A DNA stretch of 42,842 bases, taken from UHGV virus genome UHGV-0138423; one strand, written 5' to 3'. Positions 8,832 through 40,923 of the stretch are shown in pieces. Within the stretch, counting starts at the first letter, position 1. Each line of letters opens with the position of its first letter. The notes below the pieces were generated by a model. That model saw nothing but the letters and a program-made list of their open reading frames with translations. It was not told the origin of the DNA and ran no database searches. The translations under genes and the position numbers were made by a program. The DNA comes from a virus.

Positions 8832-9134
8832 TTACTCCGTTGATACCAGTAAATGGCTGCGACCGCCCAGGTCAGTTTTTGTGGGGTAATCCTGTGTGTT
8901 GTCATCACAGACCACCACCAGCTTAAAACCAAGCCCCATACAGGCGTACTGCGCCAGCAGGTCAGCACCAGTGACGAGAGGAATACCGGAGATTACCGGC
9001 TCCCCTCTGTCGTTCTGCAGGTCCATAATCCAGTATAGATCGCGCCATATGATGCTAATCCGCCAGGTGACACCACCCAGGACGATGCTGAACTGCTGGT
9101 TGTCCGCTGTCAGCGGAATTTCCTGAATTGTCAT
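8832..9134 (-). CDS. Small tail/baseplate protein
   Basis: 100 aa ORF tightly packed within the tail operon; no family recognised. Confidence 0.4.
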   Translation of the reverse strand: MTIQEIPLTADNQQFSIVLGGVTWRISIIWRDLYWIMDLQNDRGEPVISGIPLVTGADLLAQYACMGLGFKLVVVCDDNTQDYPTKTDLGGRSHLLVSTE

Positions 9135-9721
9135 TAGCCGCCCCCCAGTAATGACGCCACGTTACCCGTGATGCTTTTCAGCAGTGAAGTATCTGGAGGT
9201 TTTGTGGTTTTGTTGCCGCTGTTCTGTACCGCCGACGTGCTGGCCCCTTCCTTCATGTTGGTTTTATCCGCGACGGTAATCTGCTGTGTCCGGGAGATAA
9301 TGACCTCCCTCAGGGTGAGGACGGCGGACAGGACGTTTTCGGTTGTCTTGTCCGTCGTCACTTCCAGCGCCCGGATCAACATGTTGCTGTACAGCCGTTT
9401 ACCGGTTACCACATCGAAGGGGATACGGCTTTCCTGCAGATCCAGTAGCTCCTGATACGTCTGCTGAGGACTCAGGCCGAGCAGGCTGGTAGCCGTCAGG
9501 TTACTGGCAAAATCCAGCAATGCGCCGCCACCGGCGAAACCAACCTCCATCACCACTTCTGACGGTTTTTTATAGGCATGATCAGCGACAGCGGCCCCGA
9601 CCTCTACCGGATGCTCTGTTATTTCAAGCATATCTGTATGCTTCTCTGAAATAACAACACTGGGAACAATCATTCCTATTTTTCTGCTCTGCTGATGAAA
9701 AAGTGTAGAGAGAATATCCAC
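9134..9721 (-). CDS. Tail protein downstream of the tape measure gene
   Basis: 195 aa ORF abutting the tape measure stop; position equals PBSX XkdP / Mu gp43-type proteins. Confidence 0.4.
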   Translation of the reverse strand: MDILSTLFHQQSRKIGMIVPSVVISEKHTDMLEITEHPVEVGAAVADHAYKKPSEVVMEVGFAGGGALLDFASNLTATSLLGLSPQQTYQELLDLQESRIPFDVVTGKRLYSNMLIRALEVTTDKTTENVLSAVLTLREVIISRTQQITVADKTNMKEGASTSAVQNSGNKTTKPPDTSLLKSITGNVASLLGGG

Positions 9722-11706
9722 TAACCCACCCTCACCTGATTACTTCGCATGACCTGAGCATTTGCAGACTGTTGCCGACGTGCAACCTCATTACCGACAG
9801 CGTGCGGATCTCCGCCACCGTAAATATGGTAGGTATTTTGCTGGTTAACCTCTGTCACTTTGCCACTAATTCCCGCCACGGCAGCCTTATTAATCAGCTC
9901 TCGAGAATAGATATTTCTTCCATTCTCATGCTGGATAATGCTGCTCATCAATGCTGACATGGTTTGCGGATCGCTCATATTCAGGGCAGCCCGGGGATCC
10001 ACTCCCAGTCGTTGCGATACAGCCCTGATATACGCGGTTGTGTTGTTATTATCAGACGCAGGTGCCCAGGTAGAGATAATTTTCTCCACACTGTTTATTC
10101 CCCGTCCGGCGTACAGCATTAACTGACGAGCAAGAGCCCGTAATCCATCAAAAGCGGTTTCAAATCTGGCAAATCGCCCGCCCGGTCGTTCAAGAGAAGC
10201 CCCCGCCTGACCAGCAAAATTAAGGTTTCCCGGATTGTTATTCCGTTCTCCTCGCTTCGTAGCCTGTGCATGTTGTTCCGGCTCAGCACCTGGAATATCT
10301 GACTGAATATTTGCGCCTTTTACGGTATGAGGATTACGACCAAAATCGGTATCAATGCCAAGCCAGCGCAATGAATCTCCAATATTTTGTTTCGTGTAAT
10401 CCCAGGATGACTTCGCACTGGCACCAATATTTTCGCGATCGGAGTACAAATAAGCAGCATAAGCCATCCAGCCTTTTAACCATGGCGGTACCGGCAAACC
10501 AGATATTTTCCCGAAAGCCCCCAGAACCCTGGATACCCAGACACCCGCGATGAATGTACCGAGGATTTCCAGTGCATTTTGCCAGCCGCCAACACCATCT
10601 TTTAGTTCCAGAAGGTGATCACGAAGCCAGGTGATCGCATCCTTCGCTTTATCTATTGCCGGTTGCCATTTTTCCCAGTCGATAAGACTGTTACCGCCTT
10701 CTTTCCATGTTTTGTAGTCTTCCCACAAGAGACCGAGAGCCACGATCAGACCGGTAATCAGCCCTATAGGTGACATCCAGAAAGTAGAGTTAAGTATCCG
10801 CATGGCGACAACCAGACCGCCGATAACCTCTATCAGGGTTTTCGTTTCGGCATCCAGTTTCCCCCACCACTCGATGATATCTCCGACACCATCGACTATC
10901 CGAAATGCTACCCGCCCGACTATCTCACCCAGCCAGAGGATCCCCTTTATGACCTTTGTGATGGTGACTTCAATTTTGGGAAAATTTTCAATTATCTTTT
11001 TGCGCAGGTTATCAATCTGCCCCGCCAGTCCGTCCGCAAGATTCGATCCGATTTTGTCCCGCGCCATCCCGGCCATTTCACCGAGCGATTTCAGCGAGGT
11101 CATAAACCGGTTTGACGATAAGGCAGCCTGATCGGCATTAAATCCGATCGCTTTCACCATTTCTGAATACTGAGCGCTGAACTGCCCCACTCCGCGACGC
11201 ATAGCCATCAGGGTATTTTCGTCAATGCCCAGCATCTGCGCATACTGGTTAGCCCGGTAATACGGCATGCTGCTGAGTTTCTGCCCAACGCCCGTAAAGA
11301 TAGCAGCCATGTCACGCATGTTACCGCGGGCATCACGGGTCTGTACGCCCAGGCGATTCAGAAAGCCTTCTGCTCCGGGATTGTTACGAATAAACCGGGA
11401 GAGGCTTTCCAGAGAAGATCGCGCAGCGTCCACACTGCCGCCAACCTGCGAAACCGCATAGCCAATAGACTGAATTCCCTGGACCGTCGCGCCGGTGCGC
11501 TGTGACGCCCAGTAAAGATTATCCAGGCCGGAGGCGATCTTAGCCGTGAAGGCCACCACGGACAGCGCAGCTCCTTCAACAGCCAGCCCCATTTTGATGA
11601 CATTTGCAGTTGTACCGGCGAGGACAGAACCGAACTTTTTCGCTCCTGCATCATCCACACTGAAGCCAAGCGAGACGAGGAAATCTTTAATAGTTTCAGC
11701 GTTCAT
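9721..11706 (-). CDS. Tail tape measure protein with an extra C-terminal globular domain
   Basis: 661 aa from the ATG (MNAETIKDF...) preceded by GGAGAGAGG; Ala/Gly-rich helical N-terminal part and hydrophobic central segments typical of tape measure proteins; C-terminal region contains an NNNPGNL motif. Confidence 0.75.
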   Translation of the reverse strand: MNAETIKDFLVSLGFSVDDAGAKKFGSVLAGTTANVIKMGLAVEGAALSVVAFTAKIASGLDNLYWASQRTGATVQGIQSIGYAVSQVGGSVDAARSSLESLSRFIRNNPGAEGFLNRLGVQTRDARGNMRDMAAIFTGVGQKLSSMPYYRANQYAQMLGIDENTLMAMRRGVGQFSAQYSEMVKAIGFNADQAALSSNRFMTSLKSLGEMAGMARDKIGSNLADGLAGQIDNLRKKIIENFPKIEVTITKVIKGILWLGEIVGRVAFRIVDGVGDIIEWWGKLDAETKTLIEVIGGLVVAMRILNSTFWMSPIGLITGLIVALGLLWEDYKTWKEGGNSLIDWEKWQPAIDKAKDAITWLRDHLLELKDGVGGWQNALEILGTFIAGVWVSRVLGAFGKISGLPVPPWLKGWMAYAAYLYSDRENIGASAKSSWDYTKQNIGDSLRWLGIDTDFGRNPHTVKGANIQSDIPGAEPEQHAQATKRGERNNNPGNLNFAGQAGASLERPGGRFARFETAFDGLRALARQLMLYAGRGINSVEKIISTWAPASDNNNTTAYIRAVSQRLGVDPRAALNMSDPQTMSALMSSIIQHENGRNIYSRELINKAAVAGISGKVTEVNQQNTYHIYGGGDPHAVGNEVARRQQSANAQVMRSNQVRVG

Positions 11707-11883
11707 TATCCTCTCTCCATTTCTCAATGCGCCGCTGGTTATCCGCTTTTACCGCCAGATGGTCATTCAAGAGAGCAATGTCATACAAATCGACAGAGCC
11801 ATCTTTAAGTGCTGTATAGGGAATTAACCCGGCGTCAACCGGATTGAGAAGGTAGGACAGCCCGTCCGGCAGGCTGTTAAACG

Positions 11884-12336
11884 TCAGCCCTGTTGCAGGC
11901 TCTGTGTCGTGCTGGTAAGGGGTGTAGGCAAAAAATTTCCCAGCGAATCGGCGACCACCCGCGCCACCAGATGAAGCATGACCAGCAAGTCAATATCATC
12001 AAACATCAGTTCGCCCTGGGTAAATACCGGCACCCATCCATCCATATGACGCCGCGACACCACCGCAAGACAGGGATGAATAATCGCATCGGTGTCATCT
12101 TCGGTCAGGGAAGACAGTTCCTCAGCGATACGCGGGAGCATGGTTTCAAACACCGGTTTTAACTGCTCGAATTTCACGGTGTCGATTTTGCCGTCAGCAG
12201 GCAAACGGGAGCGAATGCTCCCGAAATCTGACATCATTCCCGCCAGTACCGGCAGAAGTTTGCGGGTCACTTTCAGCTGGTCAAAAACGCTGAGTTTTGC
12301 CACGCGATATTTCACGCCTTTAATTTCGAATTCCAT
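11884..12336 (-). CDS. Tail assembly chaperone (G-like), with probable -1 frameshift extension
   Basis: 150 aa ORF between tube and tape measure genes; in-frame slippery heptamer T_TTT_TTG near its 3' end; the -1 frame stays open ~71 codons to a TGA overlapping the tape measure start. Confidence 0.55.
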   Translation of the reverse strand: MEFEIKGVKYRVAKLSVFDQLKVTRKLLPVLAGMMSDFGSIRSRLPADGKIDTVKFEQLKPVFETMLPRIAEELSSLTEDDTDAIIHPCLAVVSRRHMDGWVPVFTQGELMFDDIDLLVMLHLVARVVADSLGNFLPTPLTSTTQSLQQG

Positions 12337-12339
12337 GCA

Positions 12340-12780
12340 TTAAAACTCCCCGAGAACCTGGTCAATCTTGCCGCAGTCAAACACCCACGGCATCGTATTA
12401 CCGGTTTTAGCGTTGGCGTTATCCGGTTGTTTCTGGAACGCAACACTGCGTGCCGTGATGATGTCGCCGCTGACCTTGTTGCGGATCACGATAACGTTAT
12501 TCCCCCATGTGGCAGAAGACTGGCTCTGTGCGTTATACGCCAGCGACAATTTTTTATTTGTCGGTGATGTCTTCAGAAGGTTAACGGTAATCGTCCCGCT
12601 TTTATCTGCATGGAGGCTGTGCATCACTTCACCATCAGCACCGATGGTCATGGTGTTTTTAGGACCGCCCATCGCAACCACAATCCCCTCTTCAGAACTT
12701 GCAGAACCGTACCCGAGGTCAATCGAACCGGTCGGGCCGGTCAGCGTCGCAGTGACATCCATAAAAGAATAGGTAGACAT
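12340..12780 (-). CDS. Tail tube protein
   Basis: 146 aa ORF immediately downstream of the sheath gene; size and position typical of a myovirus tube protein. Confidence 0.55.
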   Translation of the reverse strand: MSTYSFMDVTATLTGPTGSIDLGYGSASSEEGIVVAMGGPKNTMTIGADGEVMHSLHADKSGTITVNLLKTSPTNKKLSLAYNAQSQSSATWGNNVIVIRNKVSGDIITARSVAFQKQPDNANAKTGNTMPWVFDCGKIDQVLGEF

Positions 12781-12790
12781 TCACTTCCCC

Positions 12791-13936
12791 TTAGCGAACA
12801 ACGTTAATCTGTACGTCAGCGTAATGAACCGCGCCTGCAAGTTTTATTGCAGCCTGAATCACCGGAGCCTTACGGGCTTCACGTTCTGATTGTGCCTGTT
12901 CATCCAGCGGCTGGGCGTATACGTAATAACCTTTGGGCAGTGTGTCACCTGATGACAACTGACCAAGGTCGCCCCCGTTCCATACGCCCGGAGCAATCAG
13001 TCCATTCTGAACGGCCTGATCCAGTGATTTTTCAACATTTGATAACAGTCGGGTAATACCGGCTTCAGTCTGGGGAACTTTCGTGGTGCTGGTATAAAGC
13101 AGGTTATAGAGGTTGGTCTGCACATAATTCTGTAACCAGTCCAGGCCGTGGCGTTCATCAAAGAAATCGCCGTTAGCCATCACTCCCTGCTGGAGGATAG
13201 CTGTATCATTCTGGTAGTACACGAACACATTGCAGTTTTTTGCATCAAGTGCCGATGCCTGGCTGACTGTCAGTGTTTCATACCCGACACCCGGCTCCTG
13301 CTTAAACTTGAGCGTAATCGCGGTATTACTGCCATTGAAATTAACCGTGAATGCCCGGCCAAATGCAGATAACGCAGCGTATTTATTACCCGATGAATAC
13401 TGAATAAAACTGCGTGAATATCCGGCGGTTTTCAGTTTTGATGCCAAATCATCGCTGGATGCAGTCTGCAGGCATTTCTCATCGCTTGTCGTAATCGCCA
13501 GAATACGGCTTACAGAAGAGGATTCGATCGCCGCAGCCACTTTCAGCCAGTCTGCATCCGGAATATCTTCATCGCCTGCAATCCCCAGCCCATACCATGA
13601 AGTATAATCGAGCATGGCATTCACAGCCTGCTCCAGCGTCTCAGGCGTGGCCTGTTCGCTGTCTCCCTTCGTTTTCACCCAACGACCAACAAAAACCTCC
13701 TGAGGTTTCGGTGATTGTGAGAAAAACACCTGCGCAGCCTTATATTCTGGTGATTCCACGCCAAAATCTTTTCCAATATCTTCCGCGGCAGAATAACGAC
13801 GAATGCGCTCACTTACCGGAATGATTGTGGACGGGCCGAGAATGAGTAATGCACCAAAATTTCGCCCTGATGCTGCACGCGGCGACATGATCACATCAAC
13901 ATTAACAACGTTTGATACAGGCAAACCCTGTGCCAT
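12791..13936 (-). CDS. Tail sheath protein
   Basis: 381 aa; C-terminal segment (..[30 protein letters not shown]) resembles conserved sheath C-termini; followed by tube, chaperone, tape measure. Confidence 0.6.
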
Positions 13937-39870: not shown

Positions 39871-40923
39871 ATGAACGAATTAACTCAACAAGAAAATATT
39901 AACTCTAATGTTGCGGTTTTCAGCCCTCAGTCCCTGGCTGCAATTCAGACATTTTCCCAGGTAATGGCTTCCGGCATGGCTACTGTACCGGAACACCTCC
40001 GGGGAAATCCATCAGACTGCATGGCCATCACCATGCAGGCGATGCAGTGGCAAATGAACCCTTACGCAGTAGCTCAGAAAACTTTCGTTGTGAATGGTGT
40101 GCTCGGATATGAAGCGCAACTTGTTAATGCCGTAATCAGTACTCGTGGGCCGCTAACCGGGCGTATTGAATATGACTGGTTCGGGCCGTGGGAAAAAATT
40201 ATCGGGAAATTTGAAATCAGGAAGAACGACAAGGGGAAAGAATATCGTGTACCTGGCTGGAAGCTGGCCGATGAAAACGGGATCGGTGTTCGCGTCCAGG
40301 CAACACTACGCGGAGAGAGCAAGCCACGCGTACTGGAGTTACTTCTGGCGCAGGCCAGAACACGTAACTCAACGTTATGGGCCGATGATCCTCGCCAGCA
40401 GCTTGCCTATCTGGCTCTGAAACGCTGGGCGCGCCTTTATTGCCCTGAAGTGATTCTTGGAGTGTACACCCGGGACGAACTGGACGAACCACAGGAAAAA
40501 ATCATTAATCCGGTTCAGGAACATAAAAACACATCCGCCTGCCGTGCGGAACGTGAAACAACAATTATTGAGCAAGATGCCGGGGAAAACTGGATCAGTG
40601 CTTTCCGTGAACGTATTGAGCAGGCACAAAGCACCGGAGAAACAACAGCACTTCGCCAGGAAGTGGAAGATCATAAAAATACACTTGGCGCTCTCTACAC
40701 AGAACTTAAAGGAAAAGTGGTTCAGCGTCATCACCGTCTCAATGCTATTGCCCGTATTGAGAAGATGATAAATGACCTGCCTTCATCAGGTGATCCAGAA
40801 GCAGAACAAAAATTTATTGCTCTGGAAAATACGCTGAATGCTGCACGACCACATCTGGGAGAATTATATGAGGCGTATAAAACGACACTGACAGATATGA
40901 AACCAGAATATATCGGCTCCTGA
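39871..40923 (+). CDS. Single-strand annealing protein (RecT/Redbeta superfamily), partner of the RecE-like exonuclease
   Basis: 350 aa directly downstream of recE-like gene; central region (..MNPYAVAQKTFVVNGVLGYEAQL...WADDPRQQLAYLALKRWARLY..) follows the pattern of Bet/RecT-type proteins; does not match my recollection of Rac RecT. Confidence 0.55.
   Translation: MNELTQQENINSNVAVFSPQSLAAIQTFSQVMASGMATVPEHLRGNPSDCMAITMQAMQWQMNPYAVAQKTFVVNGVLGYEAQLVNAVISTRGPLTGRIEYDWFGPWEKIIGKFEIRKNDKGKEYRVPGWKLADENGIGVRVQATLRGESKPRVLELLLAQARTRNSTLWADDPRQQLAYLALKRWARLYCPEVILGVYTRDELDEPQEKIINPVQEHKNTSACRAERETTIIEQDAGENWISAFRERIEQAQSTGETTALRQEVEDHKNTLGALYTELKGKVVQRHHRLNAIARIEKMINDLPSSGDPEAEQKFIALENTLNAARPHLGELYEAYKTTLTDMKPEYIGS

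What the first reader, a model, noticed from the sequence alone, without database searches (positions are those of the whole stretch)
11704..11960. Programmed -1 ribosomal frameshift site in the tail assembly chaperone gene
Near the 3' end of the 150 aa chaperone ORF the zero-frame sequence is GGA AAT TTT TTG, giving the canonical slippery heptamer T_TTT_TTG. After a -1 slip the reading frame stays open for ~71 codons and stops at a TGA that overlaps the tape measure start codon. This is the conserved G/GT arrangement of tailed phages and supports the tail-chaperone assignment.
Basis: seen in the sequence. Interest (0 to 1): 0.4.

Follow-up and report, generated by a model that had tools for sequence, protein, structure and literature searches.

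The report
Tail chaperone -1 frameshift site
This E. coli prophage very probably makes a short and a long form of its tail assembly chaperone by letting a small share of ribosomes slip back one base on a run of A's and T's; this is a well-known phage trick, so the finding is correct but ordinary.

Summary
On the minus strand, the 150-aa gene between the tail tube and tape measure genes (12336..11884) reads CTG GGA AAT TTT TTG near its 3' end. The -1 frame is open from there to a TGA at 11698-11696, 11 nt into the tape measure gene. That is 77-79 codons, not ~71, and the stop lies 8 nt past the ATG rather than on it.

The zero-frame part is Pfam Phage_TAC_15. The -1 part is Pfam DUF6889 and has no conserved start codon.

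In 59 distinct Enterobacterales alleles the slip-site codons are frozen at synonymous positions, and the -1 region varies with codon periodicity. All 40 phage records with a match, down to 29% identity, keep the two-frame layout. Their heptamers differ but sit within the same few codons.

The tract holds three overlapping in-frame heptamers: G_GGA_AAT, A_AAT_TTT and T_TTT_TTG. A_AAT_TTT fits E. coli efficiency rules better.

No conserved downstream RNA structure was found. GenBank already annotates the frameshift in two homologues (phages Mulock and Magia), whereas RefSeq calls a separate "DUF6889" gene.

Verdict: a real -1 programmed frameshift, a new member of a known kind, of low interest. 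No experimental evidence exists.

The parts
11884..12336 (-). Zero-frame tail assembly chaperone gene ('G', 150 aa; ATG 12336-12334, stop TGA 11886-11884)
   Evidence: ORF list and translation. Pfam Phage_TAC_15 at 6.2e-31, 108 bits against a cut-off of 22. phrog_1688 'tail assembly chaperone' at 5.6e-65.
11929..11941 (-). Slippery tract GGGAAATTTTTTG, made of three overlapping in-frame heptamers: G_GGA_AAT (11941-11935), A_AAT_TTT (11938-11932) and T_TTT_TTG (11935-11929)
   Evidence: Coordinates and frame. The identical 13-mer occurs in 50 of 59 distinct alleles. Site counts are 52, 55 and 58 of 59 respectively. Synonymous codons are frozen: GGA 56/59, AAT 56/56, TTT 58/58, TTG 57/58.
11696..11929 (-). 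-1 frame extension ('T' part, 77 codons after a slip on T_TTT_TTG; stop TGA 11698-11696). The fusion product is 213 aa: join(12336..11929, 11929..11696)
   Evidence: Translation. The length is 77 codons in 51 of 59 alleles. Entropy by codon position in the -1 frame is 0.71/0.63/1.35.
11705..11821 (-). DUF6889 domain encoded in the -1 frame (C-terminal ~39 residues of the fusion)
   Evidence: Pfam PF21829 at 9e-20 on the fusion and 1.2e-20 on the T part alone, residues 38-76 of the 78-aa query. phrog_4364 at 1.9e-23.
11954..11960 (-). Shine-Dalgarno-like GGGUGGU upstream of the tract; a candidate stimulator, not established
   Evidence: Predicted duplex with the 16S 3' tail of about -7 kcal/mol, present in 88% of 59 alleles. 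It lies 14, 17 and 20 nt upstream of the three heptamers. It encodes the conserved R-V-V residues, so protein constraint cannot be separated from an RNA role.
11704..11718 (-). Tape measure ribosome-binding site GGAGAGAGG (11718-11710) and start ATG (11706-11704), both lying inside the end of the T reading frame
   Evidence: Sequence. RefSeq places the start at this ATG. The same layout is seen in 59 alleles.
9721..11706 (-). Tape measure protein gene (661 aa from ATG 11706); context
   Evidence: phrog_2276 'tail length tape measure protein' at 5e-265. Weak Pfam PhageMin_Tail match, 21 bits, below its 33.2-bit cut-off.
12340..12780 (-). Tail tube gene (146 aa); context
   Evidence: Pfam PF11681 KPP10_Orf10/DUF3277 at 8.8e-61.
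12791..13936 (-). Tail sheath gene (381 aa); context, shows that the tail is contractile
   Evidence: Pfam DUF3383 at 1.2e-100. phrog_205 'tail sheath' at 1.8e-135.

Best explanation
The gene between the tail tube and tape measure genes is a tail assembly chaperone that is decoded in two ways.

Most ribosomes read the zero frame and make the 150-aa protein. A minority slip back one base while the P- and A-site tRNAs sit on the tract G_GGA_AAT_TTT_TTG. They then continue in the -1 frame for 77-79 codons and make a 213-aa fusion. Its N-terminal ~135 residues are the chaperone and its C-terminal part is the DUF6889 domain.

The slip is tandem tRNA re-pairing on one or more of three overlapping heptamers:
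- A_AAU_UUU belongs to the efficient H_HH.U_UU.Y class in E. coli and is the site shared with distant relatives.
- U_UUU_UUG is the most conserved among enterobacterial alleles and is the site of phage P2 E/E+E'.
- G_GGA_AAU is the only heptamer left in one Salmonella allele and in a mitomycin-induced Bordetella phage.

No downstream RNA structure seems to be involved, so the frequency is probably a few percent. That fixes a high short:long ratio.

The frameshifted ORF ends 11 nt inside the tape measure gene, just past that gene's ribosome-binding site.

By analogy with lambda G/GT, and not shown here, both forms coat the tape measure protein through the shared N-terminal part, and the extra domain recruits the tube protein. 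Neither form ends up in the virion.

Shown: the sequence layout, domain content and evolutionary constraints. Inferred: the slip itself, its frequency, which heptamer is used, and the protein functions.
For: 1. Layout. The 150-aa ORF, the tract and the open -1 frame ending at TGA 11698-11696 are all present.
2. Identity. Phage_TAC_15 in frame 0 and DUF6889 in frame -1. The flanking genes are tube, sheath and tape measure.
3. Nucleotide-level selection in 59 distinct alleles from Enterobacterales genomes and phages. G133 is GGA in 56/59, N134 is AAT in 56/56, F135 is TTT in 58/58 and L136 is TTG in 57/58. Other Phe columns of the same gene split about 50:50 between TTT and TTC. Mean synonymous pair difference is 0.24 at codons 127-136 against 0.46-0.55 in the other gene segments.
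4. The -1 region is coding. Entropy by -1-frame codon position is 0.71/0.63/1.35. This includes the ~25 codons upstream of any plausible start. The other two frames carry on average 4-6 stops.
5. There is no conserved initiation codon. The most conserved start-like codon is an internal Met at T codon 54 (39 of 51 alleles), which would cut the domain. Gene callers pick inconsistent starts, giving products of 43-78 aa, and RefSeq's own start here is a CTG at 11860.
6. The T-part length is fixed at 77 codons in 51 of 59 alleles. The -1 stop always falls just after the tape measure ATG.
7. All 40 phage records matched by tblastn show two pieces in two frames covering at least 90% of the fusion, down to 29% identity. 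Distant members carry different heptamers within the same few codons: C_CCT_TTT (Burkholderia Magia, BgManors32, WC36-2), A_AAT_TTT (Acinetobacter), G_GGA_AAT (Bordetella), T_TTT_TTT (Providencia), G_GGT_TTT/T_TTT_TTC (Ralstonia).
8. GenBank records of the homologues in Klebsiella phage Mulock and Burkholderia phage Magia carry a joined 'frameshift product' CDS.
9. Precedent. P2 E/E+E' shifts on GGT TTT TTG in the same tube-chaperone-tape measure layout, with the same short overlap into the tape measure gene.
10. E. coli heptamer rules (PMC4066793).
11. In the AlphaFold2 model of the short form, the last helix ends at residue 132 and residues 135-150 are low-confidence. The slip therefore sits at a domain boundary.
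Against: - There is no experimental evidence for this family: no fusion peptide and no reporter assay.
- No conserved downstream stem-loop or pseudoknot was found (RNAalifold energy about 0, mean z about 0; nothing relevant in Rfam), so efficiency may be very low.
- U_UUU_UUG ends in a poor A-site codon by E. coli rules. The U_UUG tetramer is only 1.8-3.6-fold above background.
- Part of the nucleotide conservation just after the tract is explained by dual coding rather than slipperiness.
- One relative, Edwardsiella phage ZHS, has no canonical in-frame heptamer, only the tetramer T_TTT.
- Heptamers with long -1 extensions are not rare in this window taken on their own.
Confidence: 0.9

Rival explanations
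1. The DUF6889 reading frame is a separate small gene with its own, non-canonical start codon, as RefSeq annotates it (54 aa from CTG at 11860). No frameshift is involved.
For: PGAP and many other pipelines call a stand-alone 43-78 aa 'DUF6889 family protein' or 'NTP pyrophosphohydrolase' here. phrog_4364 is a 54-residue family.
Against: - The window has no ATG, GTG or TTG in the -1 frame that would give even 40 aa.
- The called starts differ from record to record and are mostly CTG.
- Codon 24 of the T part, PGAP's start, is Glu in most lineages.
- The ~23 codons between the slip site and that start are stop-free in nearly every allele examined (58 of 59 full-length genome loci; all 59 alleles), show codon periodicity and have conserved residues (ARTPxQRD..LP.G).
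- There is no good Shine-Dalgarno sequence before the CTG.
Confidence: 0.03
2. The long form arises by transcriptional slippage. RNA polymerase adds one extra U while copying the T6 run, and standard translation of that minority of mRNAs gives the fusion.
For: There is a homopolymer run of six T's preceded by three A's. A DNA-level T7 variant that fuses the frames exists in one public assembly (P0001/L159), so the run is indel-prone in sequencing or replication.
Against: - Efficient bacterial RNA polymerase slippage was shown on runs of 9 A or T, in keeping with an RNA-DNA hybrid of 9-10 bp (PMC5009743). Six is short.
- Relatives keep the two-frame layout with heteropolymeric heptamers that have only 3-4 identical bases (C_CCT_TTT, G_GGA_AAT). 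These fit tandem tRNA re-pairing and not polymerase slippage.
- All the candidate heptamers are in the correct codon phase, which only matters for ribosomes.
Confidence: 0.05
3. The layout is an evolutionary relic or a chance ORF overlap. Only the 150-aa protein is made, and the -1 frame is not expressed in this prophage.
For: Heptamers occur at about the chance rate, and 9 of 76 in this window have long -1 extensions. Many prophages are defective.
Against: - The purifying-selection signature in the -1 frame and the invariant slip-site codons hold across 59 alleles and distant phages.
- The element is present in 346 of 5,426 complete E. coli genomes at mostly 95-100% identity.
- Four sequenced Escherichia phage records (vB_EcoM-606R2, -689R2, -611R5, -683R1) match at 98.3% nucleotide identity.
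Confidence: 0.02

Closest known systems
Phage P2 gpE / gpE+E' (-1 frameshift in the FETUD tail operon; Christie et al. 2002, cited in PMC3091744)
   Same: - Contractile tail, with gene order sheath, tube, chaperone, -1 extension, tape measure.
- The slip is on ..GGT TTT TTG.., the same T_TTT_TTG heptamer, about 6-15 codons before the zero-frame stop.
- The extension has no start of its own and ends a few nucleotides inside the tape measure gene: 8 nt in P2, 11 nt here.
- No downstream structure was reported for P2 and none was found here.
   Different: - No detectable sequence relationship. P2 E is Pfam Phage_TAC_7 and E' is Phage_P2_GpE, whereas here the parts are Phage_TAC_15 and DUF6889. 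BLASTP gives E = 0.4 and hhalign a probability of 0.4%.
- The proteins here are larger (150/213 aa against 91/142 aa).
- The T-run here is preceded by AAA and GGG, which adds two more heptamers.
- The P2 frameshift is experimentally proven. Its roughly 10% frequency is my recollection of Christie et al.; that paper was not held.
Phage lambda gpG / gpGT (Levin et al. 1993; Xu, Hendrix and Duda 2004, 2013, 2014)
   Same: - The same logic: a chaperone gene just upstream of the tape measure gene, a -1 slip near its 3' end, and a fixed short:long ratio (30:1 in lambda, PMC5009743).
- The first heptamer here, G_GGA_AAT, differs by one base from lambda's G_GGA_AAG (the lambda site is from my own knowledge).
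   Different: - Lambda has a non-contractile tail.
- No Pfam family other than Phage_TAC_15 and DUF6889 matched the fusion protein, so no lambda-type family was detected.
- AAU is a much poorer A-site shifter than AAG in E. coli.
- The functions assigned to the G and T parts are demonstrated for lambda only.
Homologous genes in Klebsiella phage Mulock (MN098327) and Burkholderia phage Magia (MT701587)
   Same: - True homologues: 58% and 29% identity over the whole 213-aa fusion, each in two frames.
- Both are annotated in GenBank as 'tape measure chaperone' plus a joined 'frameshift product'.
- Mulock has the identical GGGAAATTTTTTG tract.
   Different: - Magia uses C_CCT_TTT at the corresponding position.
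- The annotation is a curator's prediction. The Mulock paper does not mention it and no experiment exists.
- RefSeq annotation of the E. coli prophage, and all the other phage records examined, lack the join.
TAC-N / TAC-NC of Pseudomonas phage Adele and other Vandenendeviridae and Andersonviridae (PMC12846349)
   Same: - Myophages with a proposed conserved -1 frameshift on a poly-T motif (GTTTTT) at the 3' end of the chaperone gene.
- Argued in the same way: the -1 frame is open in all alleles, and the downstream 'hypothetical protein' is really the C-terminal domain.
   Different: - They were not found as sequence relatives of this chaperone in the phage collection (one search lists no Pseudomonas phages).
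- The motif is described only as GTTTTT.
- Those are large lytic phages.
E. coli dnaX (tau/gamma) -1 frameshift
   Same: A bacterial -1 slip on a heptamer by tandem re-pairing. An internal Shine-Dalgarno-like element upstream could play the same role as the one in dnaX.
   Different: - dnaX has A_AAA_AAG, a strong downstream hairpin and about 50% efficiency, and it yields a shorter product.
- Here there is no hairpin.
- The SD-like element here is 14-20 nt away and unproven.

Membership tests
G/GT-type programmed frameshift of tail assembly chaperones (Xu, Hendrix and Duda 2004) | Two overlapping ORFs located between the major tail/tube gene and the tape measure gene | tested here: met
   Tube gene 12340-12780, chaperone 11884-12336, -1 ORF ending at 11696, tape measure gene from 11706.
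G/GT-type programmed frameshift of tail assembly chaperones (Xu, Hendrix and Duda 2004) | The second ORF is in the -1 frame, overlaps the 3' end of the first and lacks its own initiation signals | tested here: met
   The -1 frame is open from 11989 to 11696. The window has no start giving 40 aa or more. There is no conserved start codon in 51 alleles. Called starts are inconsistent or CTG.
G/GT-type programmed frameshift of tail assembly chaperones (Xu, Hendrix and Duda 2004) | A slippery sequence in the correct phase inside the overlap, conserved among relatives | tested here: met
   Three in-phase heptamers. They are present in 52, 55 and 58 of 59 alleles. Synonymous sites are frozen. Equivalent heptamers occur within the same few codons in distant phages.
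G/GT-type programmed frameshift of tail assembly chaperones (Xu, Hendrix and Duda 2004) | The -1 frame is under protein-coding selection | tested here: met
   Codon-position entropy of 0.71/0.63/1.35. Pfam DUF6889 at 9e-20.
G/GT-type programmed frameshift of tail assembly chaperones (Xu, Hendrix and Duda 2004) | A fusion protein is made at a low fixed ratio and is required for tail assembly | not testable with these tools
   This needs mass spectrometry, western blot, a reporter assay and genetics.
Pfam PF21822 Phage_TAC_15 | Whole-protein score above the curated gathering threshold | tested here: met
   108 bits against a cut-off of 22, residues 6-136 covering profile positions 1-120 of 127.
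Pfam PF21829 DUF6889 | Whole-protein score above the curated gathering threshold | tested here: met
   70.6-73.4 bits against a cut-off of 23.9, profile positions 2-40 of 40, in the -1 frame translation.
P2 gpE / E+E' protein families (Pfam Phage_TAC_7 and Phage_P2_GpE) | Sequence membership of the chaperone and of the extension | tested here: not met
   Neither family matched our proteins, although both matched the P2 proteins. BLASTP gave E = 0.4. hhalign gave a probability of 0.4%, with only a 4-residue 'WRE' match. The element works like P2 E/E+E' but is not a sequence member.
Stimulated -1 frameshift signals (dnaX / IS3 type) | A conserved downstream hairpin or pseudoknot 5-9 nt after the heptamer | tested here: not met
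   RNAalifold on 51 alleles gave a consensus energy of 0 to -1.7 with no helix near the site. Mean z of single-sequence folds was +0.2 to -0.5. Rfam gave nothing relevant.
Stimulated -1 frameshift signals (dnaX / IS3 type) | An upstream Shine-Dalgarno-like stimulator 6-17 nt before the heptamer | tested here: inconclusive
   GGGUGGU at 11960-11954 has a duplex energy of about -7 kcal/mol, is present in 88% of alleles and lies 14, 17 and 20 nt upstream. It encodes the conserved R-V-V residues. Codon V127 is GTG in 55/59 and R126 is CGG in 48/58.
Tail assembly chaperone fold (solved structures) | Structural similarity of the predicted model to a solved chaperone | tested here: inconclusive
   The AlphaFold2 model is only moderate (pLDDT 64, pTM 0.53). 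Foldseek against the PDB gave no hit with E below 1. A profile search of PDB sequences gave nothing.

The most novel reading that the evidence does not exclude
The 13-nt tract may work as a 'triple-chance' slippery site. Ribosomes would get three successive in-phase opportunities to slip (G_GGA_AAU, A_AAU_UUU, U_UUU_UUG), with no RNA structure but perhaps helped by the upstream GGGUGGU. The short:long ratio would then be set by the sum of three weak sites. The long form would be a mixture of two junction variants (..GNFF-AYTP.. and ..GNFL-AYTP..). Lineages could tune the ratio by losing or gaining individual heptamers, as seen in the Erwinia, Salmonella, Bordetella, Acinetobacter and Burkholderia relatives. 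The same conserved tract also appears to serve as the left recombination edge for swapping the DUF6889 cassette.
Probability: 0.3. Interest if true: 0.35.

Novelty: new member of a known kind. Interest (0 to 1): 0.2.

Why it matters
The main value is for annotation.

This prophage family is common: 346 of 5,426 complete E. coli genomes carry it. RefSeq splits its chaperone into a 'phage tail assembly chaperone' and a stand-alone 'DUF6889 family protein' with a CTG start. Older records even call the fragment 'NTP pyrophosphohydrolase'.

The evidence here indicates that DUF6889 is the frameshift-encoded C-terminal domain of the Phage_TAC_15 chaperones. That gives the DUF a likely role and a rule for annotating the joined CDS.

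Biologically it is one more example of the textbook G/GT strategy, here in a contractile-tail lineage. Its slightly unusual features are the three overlapping heptamers and the lack of a stimulatory structure.

Tried and rejected
1. Downstream stimulatory structure. I ran RNAalifold and single-sequence folding on 51 alleles over +7..+67, +7..+97 and +7..+127, plus the upstream and spanning segments. No conserved helix appeared and z-scores were about 0. The window's own hairpins at about +45..+65 are not conserved.
2. Rfam scan of 11500-12400. The only match was a sub-threshold chance hit to a microRNA.
3. Structure route to confirm a chaperone fold. The AlphaFold2 model was mediocre (pLDDT 64), and neither Foldseek against the PDB nor a PDB sequence-profile search found anything. 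An attempt to build one alignment of the fusion with G-only and T-only homologues misaligned and was not used.
4. Homology between the T part and P2 E'. Only a 4-residue WRE coincidence was found.
5. Literature. 'DUF6889' occurs in no paper. The Mulock genome announcement does not mention the frameshift. Christie et al. 2002 is not held. The SEN34 search was unproductive. The genome-wide screen of Sharma et al. did not include A_AAU_UUU, U_UUU_UUG or G_GGA_AAU among its 21 patterns, so it could not have found this site.
6. Other heptamers with long -1 extensions in the window (30662, 9146, 3966, 40501). They run into the next overlapping gene or lie in antisense ORFs. They were rejected as recoding candidates without further work.
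7. The +1 frame. It closes after 17 codons (P0003-type product), so the shift is not +1.
Full report
**What is in the sequence.**

The feature is on the minus strand. Reading that strand, the genes run in this order:
- tail sheath, 13936..12791 (Pfam DUF3383, phrog 'tail sheath');
- tail tube, 12780..12340 (Pfam KPP10_Orf10/DUF3277);
- a 150-aa ORF, 12336..11884;
- the tape measure gene, from ATG 11706 down to 9721 (phrog_2276, 5e-265).

The 13-nt tract GGGAAATTTTTTG (11941-11929) contains three overlapping X_XXY_YYZ heptamers, all in the zero-frame phase: G_GGA_AAT (11941-11935), A_AAT_TTT (11938-11932) and T_TTT_TTG (11935-11929).

The -1 frame is open from 11989 to a TGA at 11698-11696. That is 77-79 codons after the slip, depending on the heptamer, and gives a 213-aa fusion protein.

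The stop is not on the tape measure ATG (11706-11704) but 8 nt beyond it, so the two ORFs overlap by 11 nt. The tape measure ribosome-binding site GGAGAGAGG (11718-11710) lies inside the end of the -1 ORF.

**Is it more than chance?**

Taken alone, no. In all ORFs of at least 100 aa in the six frames of the window there are 76 in-phase heptamers against about 64 expected. Nine of them have a -1 extension of more than 50 codons beyond the zero-frame stop. Most of those simply run into an overlapping downstream gene or lie in antisense ORFs. The case rests on what the two frames encode and on comparison with relatives.

**What the frames encode.**

- The zero-frame product is Pfam Phage_TAC_15 (6e-31, 108 bits against a cut-off of 22) and phrog_1688 'tail assembly chaperone'.
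- The -1 frame translation is Pfam DUF6889 (9e-20) and phrog_4364 (2e-23).

A conserved protein domain is therefore encoded in the -1 frame, downstream of a chaperone gene, with no ATG, GTG or TTG that could give even 40 aa.

**Where the window comes from and how it is annotated.**

The region is 100% identical to a prophage of E. coli strain C25. It is found in 346 of 5,426 complete E. coli genomes, always on the chromosome, and in four Escherichia phage records (vB_EcoM-606R2, -689R2, -611R5, -683R1) at 98.3% identity.

RefSeq annotates 'phage tail assembly chaperone' plus a separate 54-aa 'DUF6889 family protein'. The start of that second gene corresponds to a CTG at window 11860.

In the large protein collection the DUF6889 fragments are 43-78 aa long with inconsistent starts. 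Many are labelled 'NTP pyrophosphohydrolase'.

Two GenBank records of homologues carry a joined CDS noted as 'tape measure chaperone frameshift product': Klebsiella phage Mulock and Burkholderia phage Magia.

**Comparative evidence among close and moderately distant relatives.**

I assembled 59 distinct alleles from species-representative genomes of Enterobacterales and from phages. Chaperone identity to the window ranged from 52% to 85%. Median pairwise nucleotide identity around the site was 0.68 upstream and 0.57 downstream.

The exact 13-mer is present in 50 of the 59. G_GGA_AAT is present in 52, A_AAT_TTT in 55 and T_TTT_TTN in 58.

Synonymous positions are frozen at the tract:

| Codon | Observed |
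|---|---|
| Gly133 | GGA in 56/59 |
| Asn134 | AAT in 56/56 |
| Phe135 | TTT in 58/58 |
| Leu136 | TTG in 57/58 |

Other Phe columns of the same gene are 24:24 and 33:26 TTT:TTC, and other Leu columns are mostly CTG. Mean synonymous pair difference is 0.24 for codons 127-136 against 0.46-0.55 in the other segments of the gene.

Downstream, the -1 ORF is 77 codons long in 51 of the 59 alleles. It always ends just after the tape measure ATG.

In the part beyond the zero-frame stop, nucleotide entropy by -1-frame codon position is 0.71/0.63/1.35. The same pattern (0.67/0.60/1.37) holds for the ten codons that lie upstream of RefSeq's CTG start. The other two frames contain on average 4-6 stops.

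No start-like codon is conserved, except an internal Met at T codon 54 that would remove most of the domain.

These observations show that the -1 frame is translated from the slip tract onward. They also show that it cannot be reached by independent initiation.

**Distant relatives.**

A tblastn search of the 213-aa fusion against 50,697 phage records found 40 records. In every one the match consists of two pieces in two frames covering at least 90% of the query, down to 29% identity.

In eight that I read, the -1 frame is again open from the end of the chaperone to the tape measure start. The heptamer differs but falls within the same few codons, around the motif NLG[NPD]F:

| Phage | Slippery sequence |
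|---|---|
| Burkholderia Magia, BgManors32, WC36-2 | C_CCT_TTT |
| Acinetobacter AbTJ | G_GGA_AAT + A_AAT_TTT |
| Bordetella vB_BaM-IFTN9 (a mitomycin-induced phage) | G_GGA_AAT only |
| Providencia PSTCR3 | T_TTT_TTT |
| Ralstonia PY059YO380 | G_GGT_TTT + T_TTT_TTC |
| Edwardsiella ZHS | only the tetramer T_TTT |

Replacing one heptamer by another within the same few codons is what a ribosomal tandem-slippage site would do. It is not what a polymerase-slippage run would do.

**Which heptamer?**

- It is the most conserved site among the enterobacterial alleles, and the only one left in three Erwinia/Kalamiella alleles.
- It is the site used by P2 E/E+E' (..GGT TTT TTG..).
- By the systematic E. 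coli measurements of Sharma et al. 2014, however, heptamers ending in a heterogeneous ZZN codon such as UUG are poorer. The class H_HH.U_UU.Y, which includes A_AAU_UUU, is among the most efficient.

X_XXU_UUU is also the form shared with the Burkholderia, Acinetobacter, Ralstonia and Providencia relatives.

G_GGA_AAT is the only heptamer in one Salmonella allele (L021) and in the Bordetella phage.

I conclude that the tract offers two or three consecutive chances to slip and that the site actually used is not settled. A slip on either of the first two heptamers gives ..GNFFAYTP... A slip on the third gives ..GNFLAYTP... The junction peptide would therefore decide.

**Stimulators.**

No conserved downstream structure was found. 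RNAalifold consensus energies were 0 to -1.7 kcal/mol with no helix near the site. Mean z-scores of single-sequence folds were +0.2 to -0.5. Rfam gave nothing relevant. This matches what is reported for P2 and its relatives.

Upstream, GGGUGGU (11960-11954) can pair with the 16S 3' tail at about -7 kcal/mol. It is present in 88% of alleles, 14, 17 and 20 nt before the three heptamers. It encodes the conserved Arg-Val-Val, so I cannot separate an RNA role from protein constraint. I list it only as a candidate.

**Mechanism and function.**

The best-supported explanation is a programmed -1 ribosomal frameshift by tandem tRNA re-pairing on the tract. It would be unstimulated or weakly stimulated, and so probably in the percent range. 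It would yield a major 150-aa and a minor 213-aa chaperone.

The AlphaFold2 model of the short form is only moderate (pLDDT 64). It places the last helix at residues 117-132 and leaves 135-150 at low confidence. The slip therefore sits at a domain boundary, and the zero-frame tail is a short, probably disordered peptide.

The roles of the two parts are inferred from lambda G/GT (PMC5009743). By that analogy the N-terminal part coats the tape measure protein, the extra domain recruits the tube protein, and neither is present in virions. None of this was tested here.

**Rivals.**

1. Independent initiation of DUF6889, as in RefSeq. This is contradicted by the lack of a conserved start and by coding constraint upstream of every called start.
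2. Transcriptional slippage on T6. Efficient bacterial polymerase slippage was shown on runs of 9 A/T with a 9-10 bp hybrid. Relatives also use heteropolymeric, codon-phased heptamers.
3. A non-expressed relic. This is contradicted by the purifying selection in the -1 frame.
4. A +1 shift. This is excluded because that frame closes after 17 codons.

**Comparison with known systems and novelty.**

Functionally this is the conserved tail-chaperone frameshift of Xu, Hendrix and Duda (2004).
- Its nearest analogue is P2 E/E+E': a contractile tail, the same heptamer, the same short overlap into the tape measure gene and no structure.
- It is not a sequence member of the P2 families. P2 is Phage_TAC_7 plus Phage_P2_GpE, whereas this element is Phage_TAC_15 plus DUF6889. 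BLASTP gave E = 0.4 and hhalign a probability of 0.4%.
- A 2025 paper makes the same kind of argument for a poly-T site in Pakpunavirus chaperones.
- True homologues are already annotated with the join in two GenBank records.

It is therefore a new member of a known kind. The practical gain is that DUF6889 can be read as the frameshift-encoded C-terminal domain of Phage_TAC_15 chaperones, and that the RefSeq split annotation, together with the 'NTP pyrophosphohydrolase' label, is very probably wrong.

**What led nowhere.**

- Fold and PDB searches.
- A combined alignment of the fusion with G-only and T-only homologues.
- Homology of the T part to P2 E'.
- Several literature look-ups.

**Verdict.**

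The exact heptamer and the efficiency remain open. Interest is low (0.2).

Noticed in passing
window 11696-11860 (minus strand); L001 2041-2205: RefSeq/PGAP annotates the -1 frame as a stand-alone 54-aa 'DUF6889 family protein' starting at a CTG. In other records the same fragment is 43-78 aa long with varying starts, and is often named 'NTP pyrophosphohydrolase'. That looks like a propagated misnomer.
   Followed up: partly
L159 1870-1960 (Logan assembly SRR23924998); protein P0001: One public assembly has seven T's instead of six in the tract (GGGAAATTTTTTTG). This fuses chaperone and DUF6889 in frame into a 213-aa ORF identical in layout to the predicted frameshift product. P0003 is the opposite case, a T5-type allele that runs into the +1 frame. 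These are either homopolymer sequencing errors or real indel variants.
   Followed up: partly
L147 and L148 (IMG/VR), about 200 nt after the slip site; L146 from the slip site onward: These loci are 97-100% identical to the window through the chaperone gene up to the slippery tract. They then drop to 48-58% identity across the DUF6889 part only, and return to 100% in the tape measure gene. The -1 domain is thus exchanged as a cassette bounded by the slip tract and the tape measure ribosome-binding region, while the stretch just upstream of the chaperone gene (the 3' end of the tube gene) stays 97% identical.
   Followed up: partly
window 11954-11960 (minus strand): A Shine-Dalgarno-like GGGUGGU lies 14-20 nt upstream of the heptamers. 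It is conserved in 88% of alleles, and the codons encoding it are unusually invariant (V127 GTG 55/59). P2 has GGUGGUCGG immediately before its T-run. It is a possible frameshift stimulator but is confounded by the conserved Arg-Val-Val residues.
   Followed up: partly
window 11704-11727 (minus strand): The mechanical ORF list starts the tape measure ORF at a TTG at 11727. The conserved start, with the GGAGAGAGG ribosome-binding site, is the ATG at 11706, giving 661 aa. Residues ~407-650 of the tape measure protein match endolysin and transglycosylase PHROGs, and PGAP names it 'lytic transglycosylase' in many genomes.
   Followed up: no
window 11707-11730 (minus strand) versus L158 2300-2358 (phage P2): The C-terminal ends of the two otherwise unrelated frameshift extensions share a Trp-Arg-Glu motif (..IEKWREDNER here..LITWREKALRR in P2 E'). 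The match covers only 4 aligned columns and is not significant.
   Followed up: yes
window 30662, 9146, 40501, 40474 (minus strand) and 3966, 32727 (plus strand): Other in-phase heptamers have -1 frames open for more than 50 codons past the zero-frame stop. The two whose ORF maps I read do not look like recoding: 30662 runs into the next overlapping gene and 3966 lies in an antisense ORF inside a large minus-strand gene. 9146 lies two codons before the stop of the 9134-9721 ORF, which abuts the next gene (8832-9134). The sites at 40501, 40474 and 32727 were not examined.
   Followed up: partly
L021 (Salmonella enterica s1), L150 (Bordetella phage vB_BaM-IFTN9) and L155 (Edwardsiella phage ZHS): Two relatives keep only G_GGA_AAT (GGA AAT ATT TTG and GGA AAT ACT TTC). 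One has no canonical heptamer at all (GGG GAT TTT ATG, only the tetramer T_TTT). All three still keep the open, conserved -1 frame. How the Edwardsiella phage shifts is unexplained.
   Followed up: no
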